Source: a virus. Taken from it: 64,000 nt of DNA. Under the pieces are notes generated by a model, which had not been told where the DNA came from, did no database searches, and worked only from the letters and a program-made list of their open reading frames with translations. The stretch covers positions 13,098 through 77,097 of IMG/VR virus record IMGVR_UViG_3300028558_000024. One strand, written 5' to 3'. This document shows, piece after piece, positions 16,898 through 52,349 of the stretch (the stretch's first letter is position 1; each line of letters begins with the position of its first letter). The translations under genes were made by a program, and so were the position numbers.

Positions 16898-17473
16898 ATG
16901 CCGAAGAAGAAACTCCCTGCAAAAACATTGGAAGGCACGATTGCTCGAGAGTCGAAGAAATCGTCCGACGTCTTTAATCCAGAGACTCTAACCGCGATCC
17001 AAGTCCTTGCCGCGTGCTGTTTCACGGACAAGGAAATTGCTTTAGAGCTTGGAATGAGCGTTCAAAAGCTGGCCGAGAACAAGAAAAAATATCAAGCGTT
17101 TGCCGAAGCCGTTGAACTTGGTCGAATGAAGGCAAAGAAAAAATGGGGTAAAGCCTTACTTCGAAAAATCGATGAAGGCGATATGCAGGCGATCAAATTC
17201 TACGGAACTCACGTTTTGAAGATGTCGGCGCCAAGGGCGGACGAAGACGCCGGGAAAGGAAGCACGACAAATATTGTCGTTTTCTCCCCTGAAGACATGC
17301 AAAAAGACGCTTGGCAAAAAATGGTTGAAGAAGCGAAGAAGCGCGCAACTGAAGCAGAGCCACAGCCAGAAGAAGAAAAGCCGGAATGGATGCAAGGCGA
17401 CAACGTCATTGATCTGCCGGCAATAACTTTAAACCCAGCATCAAGGGAGATTCCGCAAAGTGGAACTTCCTAA
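16898..17473 (+). CDS. terS: terminase small subunit (putative)
   Basis: HTH-like TDKEIALELG; F.EA.E.GR..AK; overlaps terL start. Confidence 0.7.
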   Translation: MPKKKLPAKTLEGTIARESKKSSDVFNPETLTAIQVLAACCFTDKEIALELGMSVQKLAENKKKYQAFAEAVELGRMKAKKKWGKALLRKIDEGDMQAIKFYGTHVLKMSAPRADEDAGKGSTTNIVVFSPEDMQKDAWQKMVEEAKKRATEAEPQPEEEKPEWMQGDNVIDLPAITLNPASREIPQSGTS

Positions 17474-19952
17474 GATCGATTCATCAAATGTGGCGCCATT
17501 TGAAGTAAAGCCGCAGCCAGGCCCGCAACTGTTTTTAGTTACCTGTCCCTACCAGGACATCTTTTTTGGCGGCCAGCGTGGTGGCGGGAAAGCTCAAACG
17601 CTTGACTCTGTGGTGCATACGCCGTTTGGACCGAAACGAATGGGCGACATAAAGTTGGGCGATCAGGTCTGCAATCCCGAGGGTGGAATCGCCAATGTAA
17701 TCGCAATTCATCCTCAACCAAAGCAGCAAATCTACAAAGTAACTATGGCTGACGGTGCGACGACTCGCGTCACCGGTGGGCACATTTGGCTTTCGCGGAT
17801 TGTCGGGCAGAAACTCAAAGCGAAAAGGCGATGGATGCACGTTTCTCGTTATTTGTATGAGGGAAGAGATTATCTCAACTGGAAGCTCTTCACGACGCTT
17901 CAACTTAAGGAATGGATCGCCAAAGGACCAGCGAGCCACAACAGCAGACTGCCAGTCTTGCCTTTGCCACAACCGTTGACCTATACCGTGAGTGGACGGA
18001 ACCCCGCCAAAATTGATCCTTACATTCTTGGTTTGATCATTGGAGATGGGCATTGCGGTGACACCGGTATTGGCATCACTTCTGCCGATAAAGAGATTGG
18101 AGACATGCTACTCCAACTGGGCTTTGTTGAAAACCGGAAGCCCGGAAATGCAGCATCAACCTATTTAGCTCGAGGGGAAATATTTCAAACCTTAAGAACA
18201 GCCCTTCAGCAGCTCGATCTGTACGGCTGTAAATCCAATAGCAAATTCATCCCCCGCCAGTTTCTCTACGGTTCAATTGAAAACAGGTGGGAGTTACTTC
18301 GTGGGTTGATGGATTCGGACGGTTCGGCAACTCCAGAGGGCAAGTTGAATTACTCGTCGGTGAGCAAACGCTTAGCCGACGAAGTCCGCACTTTGATTGA
18401 AGGACTCGGTGGCTGGGCGACCATATGGGAGAAGCCAGGAAAATATAGAAACGAAGAAGGCGAAATAGTTGAATGCCAGATTTCTTACAACCTTTACATT
18501 AAGCTTCAAGACCACAGTCAAGCATTTCGGCTTAAACGAAAGAAGGAGAGAGCGGCCAAGTATTCATTCAATGGTGGCGCTGATCAATGGCGCAAAATTG
18601 TCTCCATTGAAGAAGACGGCTTTGAAGAAGCTCAGTGCATAACAGTCGATCATCCGAACGGGCTTTACCTCACAGATAATTGCATTGTCACCCACAACAG
18701 TTTCGCAGTTCTTCTCGACTTTATTTATCATGCTGCAAAATACGGCGAACACGCTGTCGGCTTGATTGTTCGTGAATCGTATAAAGAGCTTCAGGATTTC
18801 AATGAAAAGAAAGCCATGCCAATTCTGTTTCGGCTTGGCTGGGATTGGAACGTTGGACGACAGACATGGTATGCGCCCAACGGGGCCACTCTTCGCATGG
18901 GGCACATGGCGACTCAAAAGGACGCAAATAAGCTCCTTGGCGCCGAGCTAACCTGGTTTGCTGTTGAAGAAATTGGTAATTTTCCAAACGACAACATCGA
19001 CAAGCCGGAGCCCGGATCTAACGTCGGACTCGACATGATTCGCGGATCGATGAGATCGGCTCACGGTGTACCTGTTCGCTTCCTTTGTACTGGAAATCCA
19101 GGCGGAATTGGGCATCGCTGGATCAAAGCGCGGTACGTTGATCCGGCTCCGCCGATGACACCTTTTAAAGACGAAGAAACAGGTCAGTGGCGCGTTTTCA
19201 TACCTTCTTCAACAAAAGATAATCCGATTTTGATGGAAAGCGATCCCGAGTACGTGGATCGTTTGCGTGCCGTCGGATCGAAAGCCCTGCAAAAGGCATG
19301 GATCGAAGGCGACTGGGAAATTTCACTCAAAGGCGAGATTTTTGAACGCCCCTGGTTCGGCTGGTACGACTGGAATCCGGAAGACGCGATTATGCCTCGC
19401 ATTGGCATTGGCTCCAAGTGTCCGCCGATTCATGGCCGATTTTCATCATGGGATACGGGCTGCAAAGTCGAAGAGGTTCATTCTAAGACAGCCGGACTTA
19501 CCTGGGCGACTTCCGTCAATGAAATTTTCATTCTCGATATGTTTAACAAGCGAGTTCAATTTCCTGTACTCGTCGATACAGTCAAGATGTCTTCTCGAAA
19601 ATGGAGACCAGAAGCAATTTGGGTCGAGGAAAGATCTTCCGGCATTCAATTGGTTCAAACATTGCGCACTGGAACACAACTCCCAATCAAGCCAGTTCAG
19701 GTCACCCGTGACAAAGAGAGCCGAGCTCATGCCGTCAGCGCCGGATTGACGACAGGAAAAGTACTTTTGCCCTCCAAGTGTCCATGGGCTTACGATTTGT
19801 TGGAAGAGCTTTGCGCATATCCACAAAAAGGCGAAAGCGATTTAGTCGACGCTTTCACTTTGGGAATGTCTCAGATTTCTTATTCCGAAGAAAGAATCAA
19901 GAAATTCAGGAATAGCGCAGGATACCGAAACCGCTCAATTTACGGAAGATAG
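17460..19952 (+). CDS. terL: terminase large subunit containing an intein
   Basis: GGQRGGGK/S Walker A split by intein; VEE Walker B; TGNPGG; SWD nuclease motif; DLVDA. Confidence 0.93.
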   Translation: MELPKIDSSNVAPFEVKPQPGPQLFLVTCPYQDIFFGGQRGGGKAQTLDSVVHTPFGPKRMGDIKLGDQVCNPEGGIANVIAIHPQPKQQIYKVTMADGATTRVTGGHIWLSRIVGQKLKAKRRWMHVSRYLYEGRDYLNWKLFTTLQLKEWIAKGPASHNSRLPVLPLPQPLTYTVSGRNPAKIDPYILGLIIGDGHCGDTGIGITSADKEIGDMLLQLGFVENRKPGNAASTYLARGEIFQTLRTALQQLDLYGCKSNSKFIPRQFLYGSIENRWELLRGLMDSDGSATPEGKLNYSSVSKRLADEVRTLIEGLGGWATIWEKPGKYRNEEGEIVECQISYNLYIKLQDHSQAFRLKRKKERAAKYSFNGGADQWRKIVSIEEDGFEEAQCITVDHPNGLYLTDNCIVTHNSFAVLLDFIYHAAKYGEHAVGLIVRESYKELQDFNEKKAMPILFRLGWDWNVGRQTWYAPNGATLRMGHMATQKDANKLLGAELTWFAVEEIGNFPNDNIDKPEPGSNVGLDMIRGSMRSAHGVPVRFLCTGNPGGIGHRWIKARYVDPAPPMTPFKDEETGQWRVFIPSSTKDNPILMESDPEYVDRLRAVGSKALQKAWIEGDWEISLKGEIFERPWFGWYDWNPEDAIMPRIGIGSKCPPIHGRFSSWDTGCKVEEVHSKTAGLTWATSVNEIFILDMFNKRVQFPVLVDTVKMSSRKWRPEAIWVEERSSGIQLVQTLRTGTQLPIKPVQVTRDKESRAHAVSAGLTTGKVLLPSKCPWAYDLLEELCAYPQKGESDLVDAFTLGMSQISYSEERIKKFRNSAGYRNRSIYGR
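17592..18698 (+). mobile_element. class 3 intein with LAGLIDADG homing endonuclease (369 aa)
   Basis: starts Ala (AQTLDS), ends VTHN/S; TGGHIW, AQCITV, VTHN give the WCT triad; LGLIIGDG and LRGLMDSDG motifs. Confidence 0.9.
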
Positions 19953-50962: not shown

Positions 50963-51007
50963 TGGAACGAACGATTGTTAGAAACCCAAACTGAAGGAAA
51001 AACTAAA

Positions 51008-51757
51008 ATGTCAATAAAACAACTAAACCAATTGATCGCTCTGGAAAAAGGCGTAAAGCAACGGACATACAAAGAGATTGACGCAGCATATGACTTGCTG
51101 CGAAAACCGGAAGTACTCAATGGATTTGCAAAGGAATACCAGCCGCTTGAGGAAAACGGACAAAGCTTGCCGTCCGAATCGAAGAAAGTTCAGATAACGT
51201 CCGGTGAACTCTTTGAAATTATCAAAGATCAGATGATCGAATACCTCAATATTGAAACCAGCAAGGATTTTACGAATGCTTCTGCAACCGGTGACATCAT
51301 CGCCAATGGTGTCGAGATCCAAAAGGGCGTTCCGGTTACAACATTGCTGGCATTGGAGAAACAACTTCTTGATCTGAGAACCAGTATTGAAAAAGCTGTA
51401 ACGCTTGATCCTTCGCAAGACTGGAAGTTCGACAAAGCTACTGGCTGCCAACGAACAGAACCGGTAAGAAAAGCTCGCACCAACAAGGTTCCAAAGGTAA
51501 TTACGTTGGCACCCGCTACAGACAAGCACCCCGCCCAAACACAGCTCCTTCAAGAAGATGTGATCGCAGGCTATTGGGTGCAAACGGAAATTTCTGGAGC
51601 ACTTGAAGCACCGACAAAACGCAACTACATTGAAAGAGTGAATGATCTTCTTGATGCAGTGAAAGCCGCACGGGAACAAGCAAACAGCACGGAAATTAAA
51701 AGGTTCGAATTCGCTGAGAAGATGTTGAATTACGTCTTCGCTGGTGATAAAGTCTAA
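51008..51757 (+). CDS. uncharacterised helical protein (LNQLIALEKGVK type) directly upstream of a tRNA-mimic RNA
   Basis: GAAGGA RBS; motifs Y.P..E.G..LP.E.K.VQ, VP...LL.LEKQL, A.ATDKHPAQ, SGA, AVK.ARE.AN. Confidence 0.8.
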   Translation: MSIKQLNQLIALEKGVKQRTYKEIDAAYDLLRKPEVLNGFAKEYQPLEENGQSLPSESKKVQITSGELFEIIKDQMIEYLNIETSKDFTNASATGDIIANGVEIQKGVPVTTLLALEKQLLDLRTSIEKAVTLDPSQDWKFDKATGCQRTEPVRKARTNKVPKVITLAPATDKHPAQTQLLQEDVIAGYWVQTEISGALEAPTKRNYIERVNDLLDAVKAAREQANSTEIKRFEFAEKMLNYVFAGDKV

Positions 51758-51759
51758 GT

Positions 51760-52187
51760 ACGGAAACGAAGTTCAAACTTAAATTCAAGATGAAAGCGAA
51801 GTCGGTTTGATGCAGGTGCGAATCCTGCTCGGGGCTCCAATATGCCCCGGTAGCCCAACAGTCGAGGCGACCGACGAGCAAAAAGAAAATCAACTTATTT
51901 CCTAAGTTGATTGCTGAAAGCAAGGTGTCTCAAGCACCACTGCAAATCACTGGAAGATTTCGGTTCAAATCCGAACTCGGGCGCCATGCCTGGGTAGCTT
52001 AATGGCAGAGCATCCTTTCTTAGACCTAAAGCAGTGGTTTAAACGTCGTCACCACGCGAAGAAAACAGCATAAAAGCATATAGCTCAATAGTAGAGCGAT
52101 TGACTTGTAATCAATTTGTTCTGGGTGCGATTCCCAGTATGCAAAATAAATACCGGGGGCGTCTCAGGCTACGAGGCGCCTCCACCA
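51760..52187 (+). ncRNA. large structured RNA built from tRNA-like modules (boundaries approximate)
   Basis: permuted T-acceptor-D modules at 51801-51875 and 51952-52015; cloverleaf 52076-52142; minihelix-ACCA 52155-52187; enclosing helix 51936-43/52031-38. Confidence 0.75.
52076..52142 (+). tRNA. tRNA-Thr(TGT)-like cloverleaf with 5-bp acceptor stem and no CCA
   Basis: GCATA-TA-GCTC/GAGC D arm, ATTGA-CTTGTAA-TCAAT, CTGGG-TGCGATT-CCCAG, TATGC. Confidence 0.65.
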
Positions 52188-52235: not shown

Positions 52236-52299
52236 CAGCCAAGCGTGGAGGGGCTCAGCCTCATAACCTGAGCCCGAGCGTTCGAATCGTCCTTGGTTG
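52236..52299 (+). ncRNA. D-armless tRNA-Met(CAT)-like RNA
   Basis: CAGCCAAG/CTTGGTTG closing stem; GGGCTCAG/CTGAGCCC stem with CTCATAA loop; TTCGAAT T loop. Confidence 0.55.
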
Positions 52300-52349
52300 T
52301 CGAGAAATCGGGTAGCGGTCCCAGCCGAGCCTGCACCGACTTAGTCAAT

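What the first reader, a model, noticed from the sequence alone, without database searches (positions are those of the whole stretch)
51801..51875. Circularly permuted tRNA module 1 (T arm, closed acceptor, D arm)
Seen: GTCGGT, T arm GCAGG-TGCGAAT-CCTGC, acceptor 3' strand TCGGGGC + TCCA, linker ATAT, acceptor 5' strand GCCCCGG, TA, D arm GCC...GGC, then ACCGAC pairing back to GTCGGT. The 3' half precedes the 5' half, there is no anticodon loop, and a discriminator-CCA is kept inside the acceptor loop. Known: this is the YrlA topology. Inference: RNase P/Z-type cleavage in the loop could expose a CCA end and make a two-piece RNA, as in permuted tmRNA.
Basis: partly seen in the sequence, partly recalled or inferred. 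Interest (0 to 1): 0.85.

Follow-up and report, generated by a model that had tools for sequence, protein, structure and literature searches.

The report
Phage tRNA-mimic RNA beside DUF7873
The flagged 75 bases really do fold like a transfer RNA turned inside out with no anticodon loop. They are the first of two such domains in a conserved non-coding RNA that follows one unknown protein gene (DUF7873) in hundreds of phages and bacteria, mostly without Ro60, the protein partner of the only known RNAs of this shape.

Summary

It is not chance. A covariance model built only from bacterial relatives scores it 62.8 bits, and its only other hit in the 64 kb is the sister module at 51955-52012. The reordered halves are called a tRNA by ARAGORN.

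The YrlA reading is only partly right:
- The topology matches, but the Rfam YrlA score is 29.6 bits against a threshold of 69.
- The 77-kb contig has no Ro60/TROVE, RtcB or Band-7 gene.
- The module lies 43 nt after a DUF7873 gene.

The unit "DUF7873, then module 1, then module 2" recurs in:
- 50 of 50 untruncated IMG/VR loci;
- 73 of 80 bacterial loci;
- 30 of 30 Myxococcota loci;
- the cultured phages Phendrix and Mimi, where it is unannotated.

Ro60 is absent from 11 of 13 near-complete phage records and from 20 of 40 bacterial genomes that carry DUF7873.

A 7-bp acceptor stem, G at +1 and an encoded NCCA (46% of 192 modules) fit opening by RNase P, as shown for M. smegmatis YrlA. No processing, binding or expression was shown here.

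This scan has already found the same cassette on other DNA in more than 100 genomes. I found it neither in Rfam nor in the papers searched.

The parts
50975..51757 (+). DUF7873 gene (260 aa), the conserved partner gene directly upstream of the RNA
   Evidence: Pfam PF25283 at 271.5 bits. No PHROG, NCBIfam or PDB sequence match. AlphaFold model has pLDDT 88 but no fold match in PDB or BFVD.
51769..51804 (+). Six direct hexamer repeats (AAGTTC AAACTT AAATTC AAGATG AAAGCG AAGTCG) leading into module 1
   Evidence: Read. In the family, the flank upstream of module 1 shows period-6 autocorrelation (0.36 at lag 6 and 0.34 at lag 12, against about 0.25). The gene control shows period 3.
51801..51807 (+). 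Closing stem, 5' strand (takes the place of the anticodon stem)
   Evidence: Pairs with 51869-51875 in the minimum-energy fold.
51812..51828 (+). T arm (5-bp stem, 7-nt loop TGCGAAT)
   Evidence: Fold. Model alignments. The T stem covaries in the family.
51829..51835 (+). Acceptor stem, 3' strand
   Evidence: Pairs 7 of 7 (one G-U) with 51844-51850. All 7 pairs covary in 133 distinct bacterial modules, 99% paired.
51836..51839 (+). Discriminator T73 and encoded CCA inside the acceptor loop
   Evidence: NCCA stands at this exact position in 88 of 192 non-redundant family modules, against 1.6% expected by chance.
51840..51843 (+). Linker ATAT. The predicted RNase P site lies between 51843 and 51844.
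   Evidence: Inference from the 7-bp acceptor stem, G at +1 and U at -1, and from the M. smegmatis YrlA precedent.
51844..51850 (+). Acceptor stem, 5' strand (G1 at 51844)
51853..51868 (+). D arm of the module-1 type (TAGCCCAA...GAGGC)
   Evidence: Fold. The same D-arm type is seen in first modules of other loci.
51869..51875 (+). Closing stem, 3' strand
51888..51910 (+). Hairpin between the two modules (9-10 bp, loop TTTCC)
   Evidence: Folds.
51924..52053 (+). Module 2 with its Y-RNA-like base. Stem A is GGTG 51924-51927 pairing with CACC 52050-52053. The internal loop is TCTCAAGCA on the 5' side and TTTAAACGTCG (52038-52048) on the 3' side. Stem B is 51937-51943 pairing with 52031-52037. 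The tRNA-like core is 51955-52012, with G-CCA at 51983-51986 and G1 at 51988.
   Evidence: R1 scores it 56.0 bits and R2 54.7 bits. The flanking motifs ATCGA(N) and TTAAACG are conserved around second modules.

Best explanation
Module 1 is the first of two tRNA-shaped domains of one structured non-coding RNA of about 300 nt (roughly 51760-52053). This RNA starts just after the stop codon of a DUF7873 gene. The gene-plus-RNA unit is a self-contained cassette conserved in many phages and bacteria.

The domain copies the T arm, D arm and 7-bp acceptor stem of a tRNA. It has no anticodon arm, so it cannot decode. It acts as a tRNA mimic.

Most likely course of events:
1. The RNA is transcribed together with DUF7873 and, in this phage, with the downstream tRNA-Thr cluster.
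2. The module folds into the tRNA L-shape.
3. RNase P cuts between 51843 and 51844.
4. 3' exonucleases trim ATAT back to the encoded CCA at 51839. This leaves a nicked, two-piece tRNA-like body held together by the acceptor and closing stems.
5. This body is presented to proteins that recognise tRNA. It probably works as part of a particle with DUF7873 rather than with Ro60.

Shown here: the fold, family membership, covariation, the linkage to DUF7873, and the lack of dependence on a Ro60 gene. Inferred: co-transcription, RNase P cleavage and CCA exposure (my odds about 0.5), and DUF7873 binding the RNA (about 0.3). The downstream target is unknown.
For: Fold and significance:
- Searches support the fold and show it is not chance.

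Family and linkage:
- DUF7873 lies upstream in the window, in L001 and in L199.
- In 51 IMG/VR DUF7873 loci, model hits that overlap no tRNA gene have a median acceptor complementarity of 7 of 7, against 2.4-3.2 at junctions between tandem tRNA genes. Every untruncated locus has at least one module, and most have two, at +40 to +350 nt on the gene's strand.
- 73 of the 80 best bacterial loci have modules.
- 30 of 30 loci from an even sample of Myxococcota have both modules.
- Gordonia phage Phendrix and Arthrobacter phage Mimi carry both modules in an unannotated gap after the gene.
- DUF7873 is the only conserved gene within 1.5-2.5 kb.
- In Herpetosiphon the gene and a free-standing two-module RNA are both kept but lie 1.8 Mb apart.

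Covariation:
- The structure is 96% paired, and 14 of 16 pairs show changes on both sides. The score is 0.67, against 0.20 for shuffles and at most 0.15 for slid partners.

Independence from Ro60:
- The contig has no TROVE gene.
- 32 of 35 DUF7873 viral records lack it, including 11 of 13 that are at least 90% complete.
- 20 of 40 bacterial genomes lack it, and it is never adjacent.
- One Nocardia genome has both a closed-tetraloop YrlA next to rsr and a DUF7873-linked pair.

Fit to an RNase P substrate:
- 7-bp stem, G at +1 in 86%, U at -1 in 46%, NCCA in 46%.
- Precedent in M. smegmatis YrlA.
Against: - There are no transcript, end-mapping, cleavage or binding data for any family member. No RNA run holds this stretch.
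- DUF7873 has no recognisable RNA-binding fold and no structural relative.
- Gene adjacency alone does not show binding. An earlier check within this scan priced the protein-RNA particle reading at 22 in 100.
- CCA is missing from 54% of modules (CTC or CTT instead), so an encoded CCA end is not essential to the family.
- Permuted NCCA modules also occur in complete phage genomes that have neither DUF7873 nor Ro60 (L147, L002). They also occur next to Ro60 in phages without DUF7873 shown (L133). The module can therefore work in other settings.
- This copy has G at the U55 position and no GG in the D loop, so its elbow may be atypical.
Confidence: 0.6

Rival explanations
1. It is an ordinary YrlA-type Y RNA. 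The phage supplies the RNA and uses the host's (or a not-yet-sequenced phage) Ro60/Rsr, tethering it to PNPase or another nuclease as in the RYPER complex.
For: - YrlA is the only Rfam family besides tRNA that aligns here.
- A near-match to the GNCGAAN0-1G motif (AGCGAAG, 51794-51800) stands just 5' of the closing stem. Module 2 sits in a stem / CGAA-like internal loop / stem base (motif).
- Permuted NCCA modules lie next to phage Ro60 genes in two contigs.
- Ro60 lies 1-10 kb from DUF7873 in 3 of 35 viral records.
- The contig is only 68% complete.
Against: - The score of 29.6 bits is far below the gathering score of 69.
- 11 of 13 near-complete DUF7873 phage records and 20 of 40 bacterial genomes have no TROVE gene at all, and where present it is never adjacent in bacteria.
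- CGAA occurs within 55 nt upstream in only 13 of 69 modules, and here it is part of the hexamer repeat.
- A Nocardia genome keeps a separate closed-loop YrlA beside rsr in addition to the DUF7873-linked pair.
Confidence: 0.15
2. It is a cis-acting processing and stability signal. A tRNA-like structure recruits RNase P to cut the DUF7873 mRNA away from the downstream tRNA cluster and shape its 3' end, as with MALAT1/mascRNA or mitochondrial tRNA punctuation, and it has no function in trans.
For: - It always lies directly after the DUF7873 stop codon on the same strand.
- No promoter-like site is found between gene and RNA in the window.
- In phages it often sits inside tRNA clusters, which RNase P processes.
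Against: - A plain tRNA would serve as punctuation. The permuted order, the second module, the conserved internal-loop motifs and the hexamer repeats are far more than a cleavage signal needs.
- In Herpetosiphon the two-module RNA stands alone with its own terminator, 1.8 Mb from the gene.
- Cutting inside the acceptor loop would leave the T-arm half attached to the mRNA.
Confidence: 0.1
3. It is a decoy or sponge for enzymes that attack or modify the tRNA acceptor end or elbow (toxins, defence nucleases, nucleotidyltransferases). It protects real tRNAs during infection and needs no dedicated protein partner.
For: - The acceptor, T and D features and the NCCA are kept while the anticodon is dispensed with.
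- It sits among phage tRNA genes.
- NCCA modules occur in phages that have neither DUF7873 nor Ro60.
Against: - Single, highly conserved chromosomal copies in Myxococcota lie in non-phage neighbourhoods, which argues for a cellular role.
- The tight linkage to DUF7873 would be left unexplained.
- No target enzyme is identified.
Confidence: 0.1
4. It is a circularly permuted tRNA gene that matures into a real decoding tRNA through a circular intermediate, as in Cyanidioschyzon or Thermofilum. Alternatively it is a decayed junction between two tandem tRNA genes.
For: - The 3' half precedes the 5' half.
- ARAGORN accepts the reordered sequence when a 7-nt loop is supplied from the flanks.
Against: - There is no anticodon loop. 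The closing stem runs straight into conserved non-tRNA flanks.
- The anticodon that ARAGORN reports changes with the arbitrary join.
- Bacteria are not known to have the splicing endonuclease this pathway needs (10.1101/312249).
- Real tandem-tRNA junctions show 2.4-3.2 of 7 acceptor complementarity, against 6.5 of 7 here.
- Strong covariation excludes decay.
Confidence: 0.03

Closest known systems
YrlA (Y RNA-like A; Rfam RF02553), the Ro60/Rsr-bound tRNA mimic of bacteria and some phages (Chen et al. 2014, PMC4201824; Wang et al. 2018, 10.1101/312249)
   Same: - The arm order is the same (T arm, loop-closed acceptor stem, D arm), with no anticodon loop and with 5' and 3' ends pairing where the anticodon stem would be.
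- It often occurs as two RNAs in tandem.
- Like M. smegmatis YrlA it has a 7-bp acceptor stem, which in that species is cut by RNase P and then given CCA.
   Different: - It scores 29.6 bits against a gathering score of 69.
- It is not encoded next to rsr, and most carriers have no Ro60 gene.
- It is linked to DUF7873 instead.
- The acceptor loop is longer and carries an encoded NCCA in about half of the members, whereas a canonical rsr-adjacent YrlA in Nocardia has a closed tetraloop.
- Module 1 has a short closing stem flanked by hexamer repeats rather than a long Ro-binding stem.
Phage Y RNA-like RNAs beside phage Ro60 (mycobacteriophages, CcrColossus, Bacillus phage G; Thermus phage phiLo Yrl1/Yrl2, PMC12135203)
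   Same: They are phage-encoded and occur in tandem. They have a stem / CGAA-bearing internal loop / stem base, like the base of module 2.
   Different: Those RNAs were found through their neighbouring Ro60 gene and were shown to bind it. Here no Ro60 gene is present, and the neighbour is DUF7873.
[quoted passage not shown] The 2016 paper itself was not held, so I could not read it.
   Same: It rests on the same idea: a tRNA-like RNA that works with a protein partner other than Ro60.
   Different: b7a-tRNA is said to resemble an authentic tRNA and to sit with a Band-7 protein and RtcB. The window's contig has neither, DUF7873 is not a Band-7 protein by Pfam, and the RNA here is permuted and lacks an anticodon.
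Circularly permuted tRNA genes of Cyanidioschyzon merolae and Thermofilum, and two-piece (permuted) tmRNA
   Same: The 3' half is encoded before the 5' half. In tmRNA, processing gives two base-paired pieces with a CCA end.
   Different: - No anticodon arm is restored.
- Module 1 has no G3:U70 alanine identity pair.
- There is no tag reading frame.
- ARAGORN finds no tmRNA.

Membership tests
YrlA (Rfam RF02553) | tRNA-like domain in the order T arm, loop-closed acceptor stem, D arm, with no anticodon loop | tested here: met
   Minimum-energy fold. Full-length alignment to the YrlA model over the tRNA-like part.
YrlA (Rfam RF02553) | Score at or above Rfam's gathering threshold (69 bits) | tested here: not met
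   29.6 bits, with non-standard pairs marked in both outer helices. Relatives score 27.8-40.7 bits.
YrlA (Rfam RF02553) | GNCGAAN0-1G (CGAA) Ro-binding motif near the 5' end, within a stem formed by the 5' and 3' ends | tested here: inconclusive
   AGCGAAG at 51794-51800 has one mismatch, but it is the fifth hexamer repeat and no long stem encloses it. CGAA is found upstream of only 13 of 69 family modules. Module 2 has the related loop (TCAAG here, ATCGA in most relatives).
YrlA (Rfam RF02553) | Encoded next to rsr (Ro60/TROVE) | tested here: not met
   The 77-kb contig has no TROVE match. It is absent from 32 of 35 DUF7873 viral records and 20 of 40 bacterial genomes.
YrlA (Rfam RF02553) | Bound by Ro60/Rsr | not testable with these tools
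   This needs a pull-down or gel-shift experiment.
DUF7873-linked double tRNA-mimic RNA (unnamed; not in Rfam) | Lies directly downstream of a DUF7873 gene on the same strand | tested here: met
   The gene ends at 51757 and the module starts at 51801.
DUF7873-linked double tRNA-mimic RNA (unnamed; not in Rfam) | Matches a covariance model built from other members only | tested here: met
   R2 was built from 141 bacterial modules. It scores module 1 at 62.8 bits and module 2 at 54.7 bits, with no other hit in the window.
DUF7873-linked double tRNA-mimic RNA (unnamed; not in Rfam) | Two permuted modules in tandem about 150 nt apart, the first with a GCCC-type D arm and the second with a GCTC/GCTT-type D arm | tested here: met
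   The model cores start at 51808 and 51955. D arms as.
DUF7873-linked double tRNA-mimic RNA (unnamed; not in Rfam) | Period-6 repeats 5' of module 1, and a TTAAACG-type motif 3' of module 2 | tested here: met
   Six hexamers at 51769-51804 and TTTAAACGTCG at 52038-52048.
Circularly permuted tRNA gene (matures into a decoding tRNA) | A complete anticodon arm is restored when the ends are joined | tested here: not met
   No anticodon loop is encoded. ARAGORN's anticodon depends on which flank bases are borrowed for the join.
Two-piece tmRNA | Alanine identity (G3:U70) and a tag-peptide reading frame | tested here: not met
   Position 3:70 is C:G. ARAGORN finds no tmRNA in the window.
Band-7-associated tRNA system | Neighbouring Band-7/SPFH protein and RtcB ligase | tested here: not met
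   The contig has no PF01145 or PF01139 match.

The most novel reading that the evidence does not exclude
DUF7873 and the double tRNA-mimic RNA form an undescribed ribonucleoprotein that does not depend on Ro60 and is shared by phages and at least seven bacterial phyla. RNase P opens the acceptor loops, so each domain becomes a two-piece, CCA-ended, anticodon-less tRNA body. The hexamer repeats beside module 1 are the protein's landing sites. The exposed acceptor ends engage tRNA enzymes (the CCA-adding enzyme, a synthetase, EF-Tu or a tRNA-targeting toxin).
Probability: 0.27. Interest if true: 0.85.

Novelty: new variant of a known kind. Interest (0 to 1): 0.7.

Why it matters
tRNA mimicry by a non-coding RNA in bacteria is so far tied to two systems, tmRNA and the Ro60/YrlA particles.

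This cassette shows the same inside-out tRNA design travelling with a different protein of unknown fold. It is seen in phage tRNA clusters and as single conserved chromosomal copies in Actinomycetota, Myxococcota, Chloroflexota and other phyla. At least 590 species-representative genomes carry the gene.

It is unannotated even in cultured, easily handled phages (Gordonia phage Phendrix, Arthrobacter phage Mimi) and in Myxococcus. Its function can therefore be tested directly.

If RNase P really opens the acceptor loop at an encoded CCA, this would be a natural split tRNA body made by a route not described for bacteria outside M. smegmatis YrlA.

For genome annotation, it explains a recurrent gene-free gap after DUF7873. 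It also warns that models of this RNA score junctions between tandem tRNA genes at 28-53 bits, so a pairing check is needed.

Tried and rejected
- **IMG/VR pattern scans:** They returned mostly junctions between tandem tRNA genes. Only a filter for acceptor complementarity pulled out true modules, so these scans give no frequency.
- **Model R1 on its own does not discriminate:** it scores tandem tRNA junctions at 28-53 bits. I therefore counted only hits that overlap no ARAGORN tRNA and have at least 6 of 7 acceptor pairs.
- **Alignment A1 was selected for acceptor pairing:** its acceptor covariation is partly circular. I rely on A5 and R2 instead.
- **DUF7873 function:** no PHROG, NCBIfam or PDB sequence match. 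Foldseek against PDB and BFVD gave nothing at E <= 0.001; the weak Cas7/RAMP-like rows have TM 0.1 and mean nothing. The protein atlas returned only its own family. The VIA-align libraries were not available.
- **Expression:** no RNA holder is listed for this stretch, so no reads were laid.
- **Literature:** no paper contains "DUF7873". Searches for permuted tRNA in phages and for tRNA-like RNAs in actinobacteriophages found nothing on this cassette. Burroughs and Aravind 2016 and two Wolin-lab reviews were not held.
- **Reordering module 2:** ARAGORN made no call, because my join kept the long base. This says nothing about module 2.
- **No complex-prediction job was sent:** the tool takes no RNA chain, and I make no protein-protein claim.

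Full report
**1. What is in the sequence**

The window is part of a 77-kb IMG/VR viral contig, judged 68% complete. It is a temperate tailed phage: it has an integrase, a terminase, a Dda-like helicase and DNA methylases.

Between the stop of a 260-aa ORF (50975-51757) and the next ORF (52647) lies about 890 nt without genes.

- closing stem 51801-51807 with 51869-51875
- T arm 51812-51828
- acceptor 3' strand 51829-51835
- T-CCA 51836-51839
- linker ATAT 51840-51843
- acceptor 5' strand 51844-51850
- D arm 51853-51868

The fold energy is -33.1 kcal/mol, with z = -3.1 and 1 of 200 shuffles folding as well.

A second module of the same design follows at 51955-52012, with G-CCA, a one-base linker and G1 at 51988. 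After it come a standard tRNA-Thr(UGU), further tRNA-like pieces and a terminator-like hairpin.

**2.

Rfam's YrlA model aligns over 51787-51899, but at only 29.6 bits against a gathering score of 69. The tRNA-like core matches well and the outer helices match poorly.

I built a model (R2) solely from 141 modules found in bacterial genomes. It scores module 1 at 62.8 bits (E 1e-13) and module 2 at 54.7 bits, and hits nothing else in the 64 kb.

I also joined the halves in tRNA order inside a script. ARAGORN called a full-length tRNA in 4 of 4 joins that leave a 7-nt loop. The anticodon it reports depends on the arbitrary join, so it means nothing.

**3. What it belongs to**

The upstream ORF is Pfam DUF7873 at 271.5 bits.

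A relative with 42% identity (L001) has the same arrangement, including T-CCA in the acceptor loop.

Pattern scans of IMG/VR, filtered for complementary acceptor strands, gave further permuted modules where ARAGORN calls no tRNA. One of them again lies directly after a DUF7873 gene.

With a DUF7873 alignment I fetched 51 viral loci and searched them with a first model, R1. R1 also scores junctions of tandem tRNA genes at 28-53 bits, so I applied a filter. Hits that overlap no ARAGORN tRNA have a median of 7 of 7 acceptor pairs (n = 94). Hits that span tRNA junctions have 2.4-3.2. After filtering:
- There are 85 modules in 51 of 52 sources, which is every untruncated locus.
- They lie at +40 to +350 nt on the gene's strand, and most loci have two.

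Of the best 80 loci, 73 have modules and 68 have two.

In an even sample of 301 Myxococcota genomes, 34 have one copy of the gene. All 30 loci examined have both modules.

Among cultured phages the gene is present in Gordonia, Arthrobacter, Rhodococcus, Rhizobium, Vibrio, Klebsiella, Serratia, Ralstonia and cyanobacterial phages, and is always annotated as hypothetical. In Phendrix and Mimi both modules sit in an unannotated gap of 400-500 nt after the gene, amid tRNA genes.

DUF7873 is the only conserved gene within 1.5-2.5 kb of the cassette.

**4. Structure support**

On 133 distinct bacterial modules:
- 96% of cells form standard pairs.
- The acceptor helix is 99% paired, and all seven of its pairs show changes on both sides.
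- The covariation score is 0.67, against 0.20 for shuffles and at most 0.15 for slid partners.

That alignment was fitted to the model, which favours the structure. Even so, the margin is large, and the T-stem and acceptor pair types are diverse.

**5. Beyond the core**

Flanks are conserved too.

Second modules sit on two stems separated by an internal loop, with ATCGA(N) on the 5' side and TTAAACG(C/T)C on the 3' side. They are preceded by CTGAGCATTGCC. This is a Y-RNA-like base carrying the CGAA-type motif used to recognise Ro-binding RNAs. The window has TCAAG and TTTAAACGTCG (52038-52048).

First modules have only a short closing stem. They are flanked on both sides by direct hexamer repeats. 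Autocorrelation is 0.36 at lag 6 and 0.34 at lag 12, against about 0.25, while the gene control shows period 3. The window has six such hexamers at 51769-51804.

The near-match to the Ro motif in front of module 1 (AGCGAAG) is one of these hexamers. CGAA is found upstream of only 13 of 69 modules. I do not count it as a Ro site.

**6. Relation to Ro60**

The contig has no TROVE, RtcB or Band-7 gene.

Of 35 DUF7873 viral records, 3 have TROVE. Of the 13 that are at least 90% complete, 2 have it. Where present it lies 1-10 kb from DUF7873.

Of 40 bacterial genomes with DUF7873, 20 have TROVE, and it is never adjacent.

One Nocardia genome carries two separate systems: a closed-tetraloop YrlA right upstream of rsr, and a DUF7873-linked pair elsewhere.

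On the other hand, permuted NCCA modules do lie beside phage Ro60 genes in two contigs. They also occur in complete phage genomes that have neither protein.

The inside-out tRNA module is therefore a building block used in several settings. The window's copy belongs to the DUF7873 setting.

In Herpetosiphon the gene is followed by an ADP-ribosylglycohydrolase gene. A free-standing two-module RNA with its own terminator lies 1.8 Mb away. Both are kept although unlinked, and the RNA can be its own transcription unit.

**7. How it probably works**

Shown: a conserved tRNA-shaped fold without an anticodon, and genetic linkage to DUF7873.

Inferred: opening by RNase P. The grounds are these:
- The acceptor stem has 7 bp, which is the feature that makes M. 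smegmatis YrlA an RNase P substrate in vivo and in vitro. That RNA is then nibbled back and given CCA.
- In 192 non-redundant modules, +1 is G in 86% and -1 is U in 46%, against 27% U elsewhere in the linker.
- Positions 74-76 are CCA in 46%, against 1.6% expected by chance. CTC (16%) and CTT (9%) are the main alternatives.
- N73 is A in 45%, U in 36%, G in 16% and C in 2%.

Because over half of the modules lack CCA, an encoded CCA is helpful but not essential. The CCA-adding enzyme could supply it.

What the opened or closed mimic then does is unknown. DUF7873 gives no help: the model is confident (pLDDT 88) but has no fold relative.

My odds:
- conserved structured RNA domain of this family: 0.9
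- RNase P processing: about 0.5
- physical DUF7873-RNA particle: about 0.3

**8. Comparison with what is known, and novelty**

The closest known thing is YrlA. The design is the same, but partner, context, loop and base differ.

The idea of a tRNA-like RNA with a partner other than Ro60 is in print for Band-7/b7a-tRNA (reported in 10.1101/312249). That system is a different protein and an unpermuted RNA.

I found the cassette neither in Rfam nor in the papers searched.

After I had reached the DUF7873 link on my own, the scan's notebook showed that the same cassette had been reported from more than 100 other genomes. A later check there priced the protein-RNA particle reading at 22 in 100. My linkage counts (50 of 50, 73 of 80, 30 of 30) support the pairing as a rule among the loci I sampled.

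I class it as a new variant of a known kind.

Noticed in passing
window 52155-52187: An 11-bp hairpin with a 7-nt loop is followed by ACCA. Its third pair is G:U (52157 with 52181) and the discriminator is A. This is the alanine identity set of tRNA-Ala and tmRNA on a minihelix. It folds at -21.8 kcal/mol with z = -4.0.
   Followed up: partly
window 52238-52300: A tRNA-like piece without a D arm. It has a 7-8 bp closing stem, an 8-bp stem bearing a CTCATAA loop (CAT anticodon-like), and a TTCGAAT T loop with an imperfect stem. ARAGORN and Rfam do not call it, and its fold is not better than shuffles (z = -0.4).
   Followed up: partly
window 17460-19952: The 830-aa terminase large subunit carries LAGLIDADG and Hom_end domains in its middle. 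This suggests an intein or an inserted homing endonuclease.
   Followed up: no
L001 3570-3720: In the related phage, the first module has a 19-bp acceptor-like stem enclosing about 50 nt. It is followed by a Leu-type D arm and what looks like a complete anticodon-type hairpin with an 8-nt loop. A Leu-type D arm (TGGCGAAATTGGCAGACGC) marks the first module in a whole subgroup of loci.
   Followed up: partly
L404 (Herpetosiphon aurantiacus, 1.172 Mb) and L403: DUF7873 and the two-module RNA are unlinked in this genome. The RNA has its own 5' hairpin (GCGCAAGAGCGC), hexamer repeats and a terminator. The gene is followed instead by an ADP-ribosylglycohydrolase gene.
   Followed up: partly
L405 (Nocardia sp., second contig, about 33.0 kb): A canonical YrlA with a 6-bp acceptor stem closed by a tetraloop lies 0.3-0.8 kb upstream of rsr. 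It is in the same genome as a DUF7873-linked pair whose RNA sits 2.5 kb from the gene.
   Followed up: partly
window 51812-51868: This copy of module 1 has G at the U55 position of the T loop (TGCGAAT) and no GG in its D loop (AACAGTCGA). Both sides of the usual elbow contact are therefore changed. L262 shares the TGC T loop.
   Followed up: no
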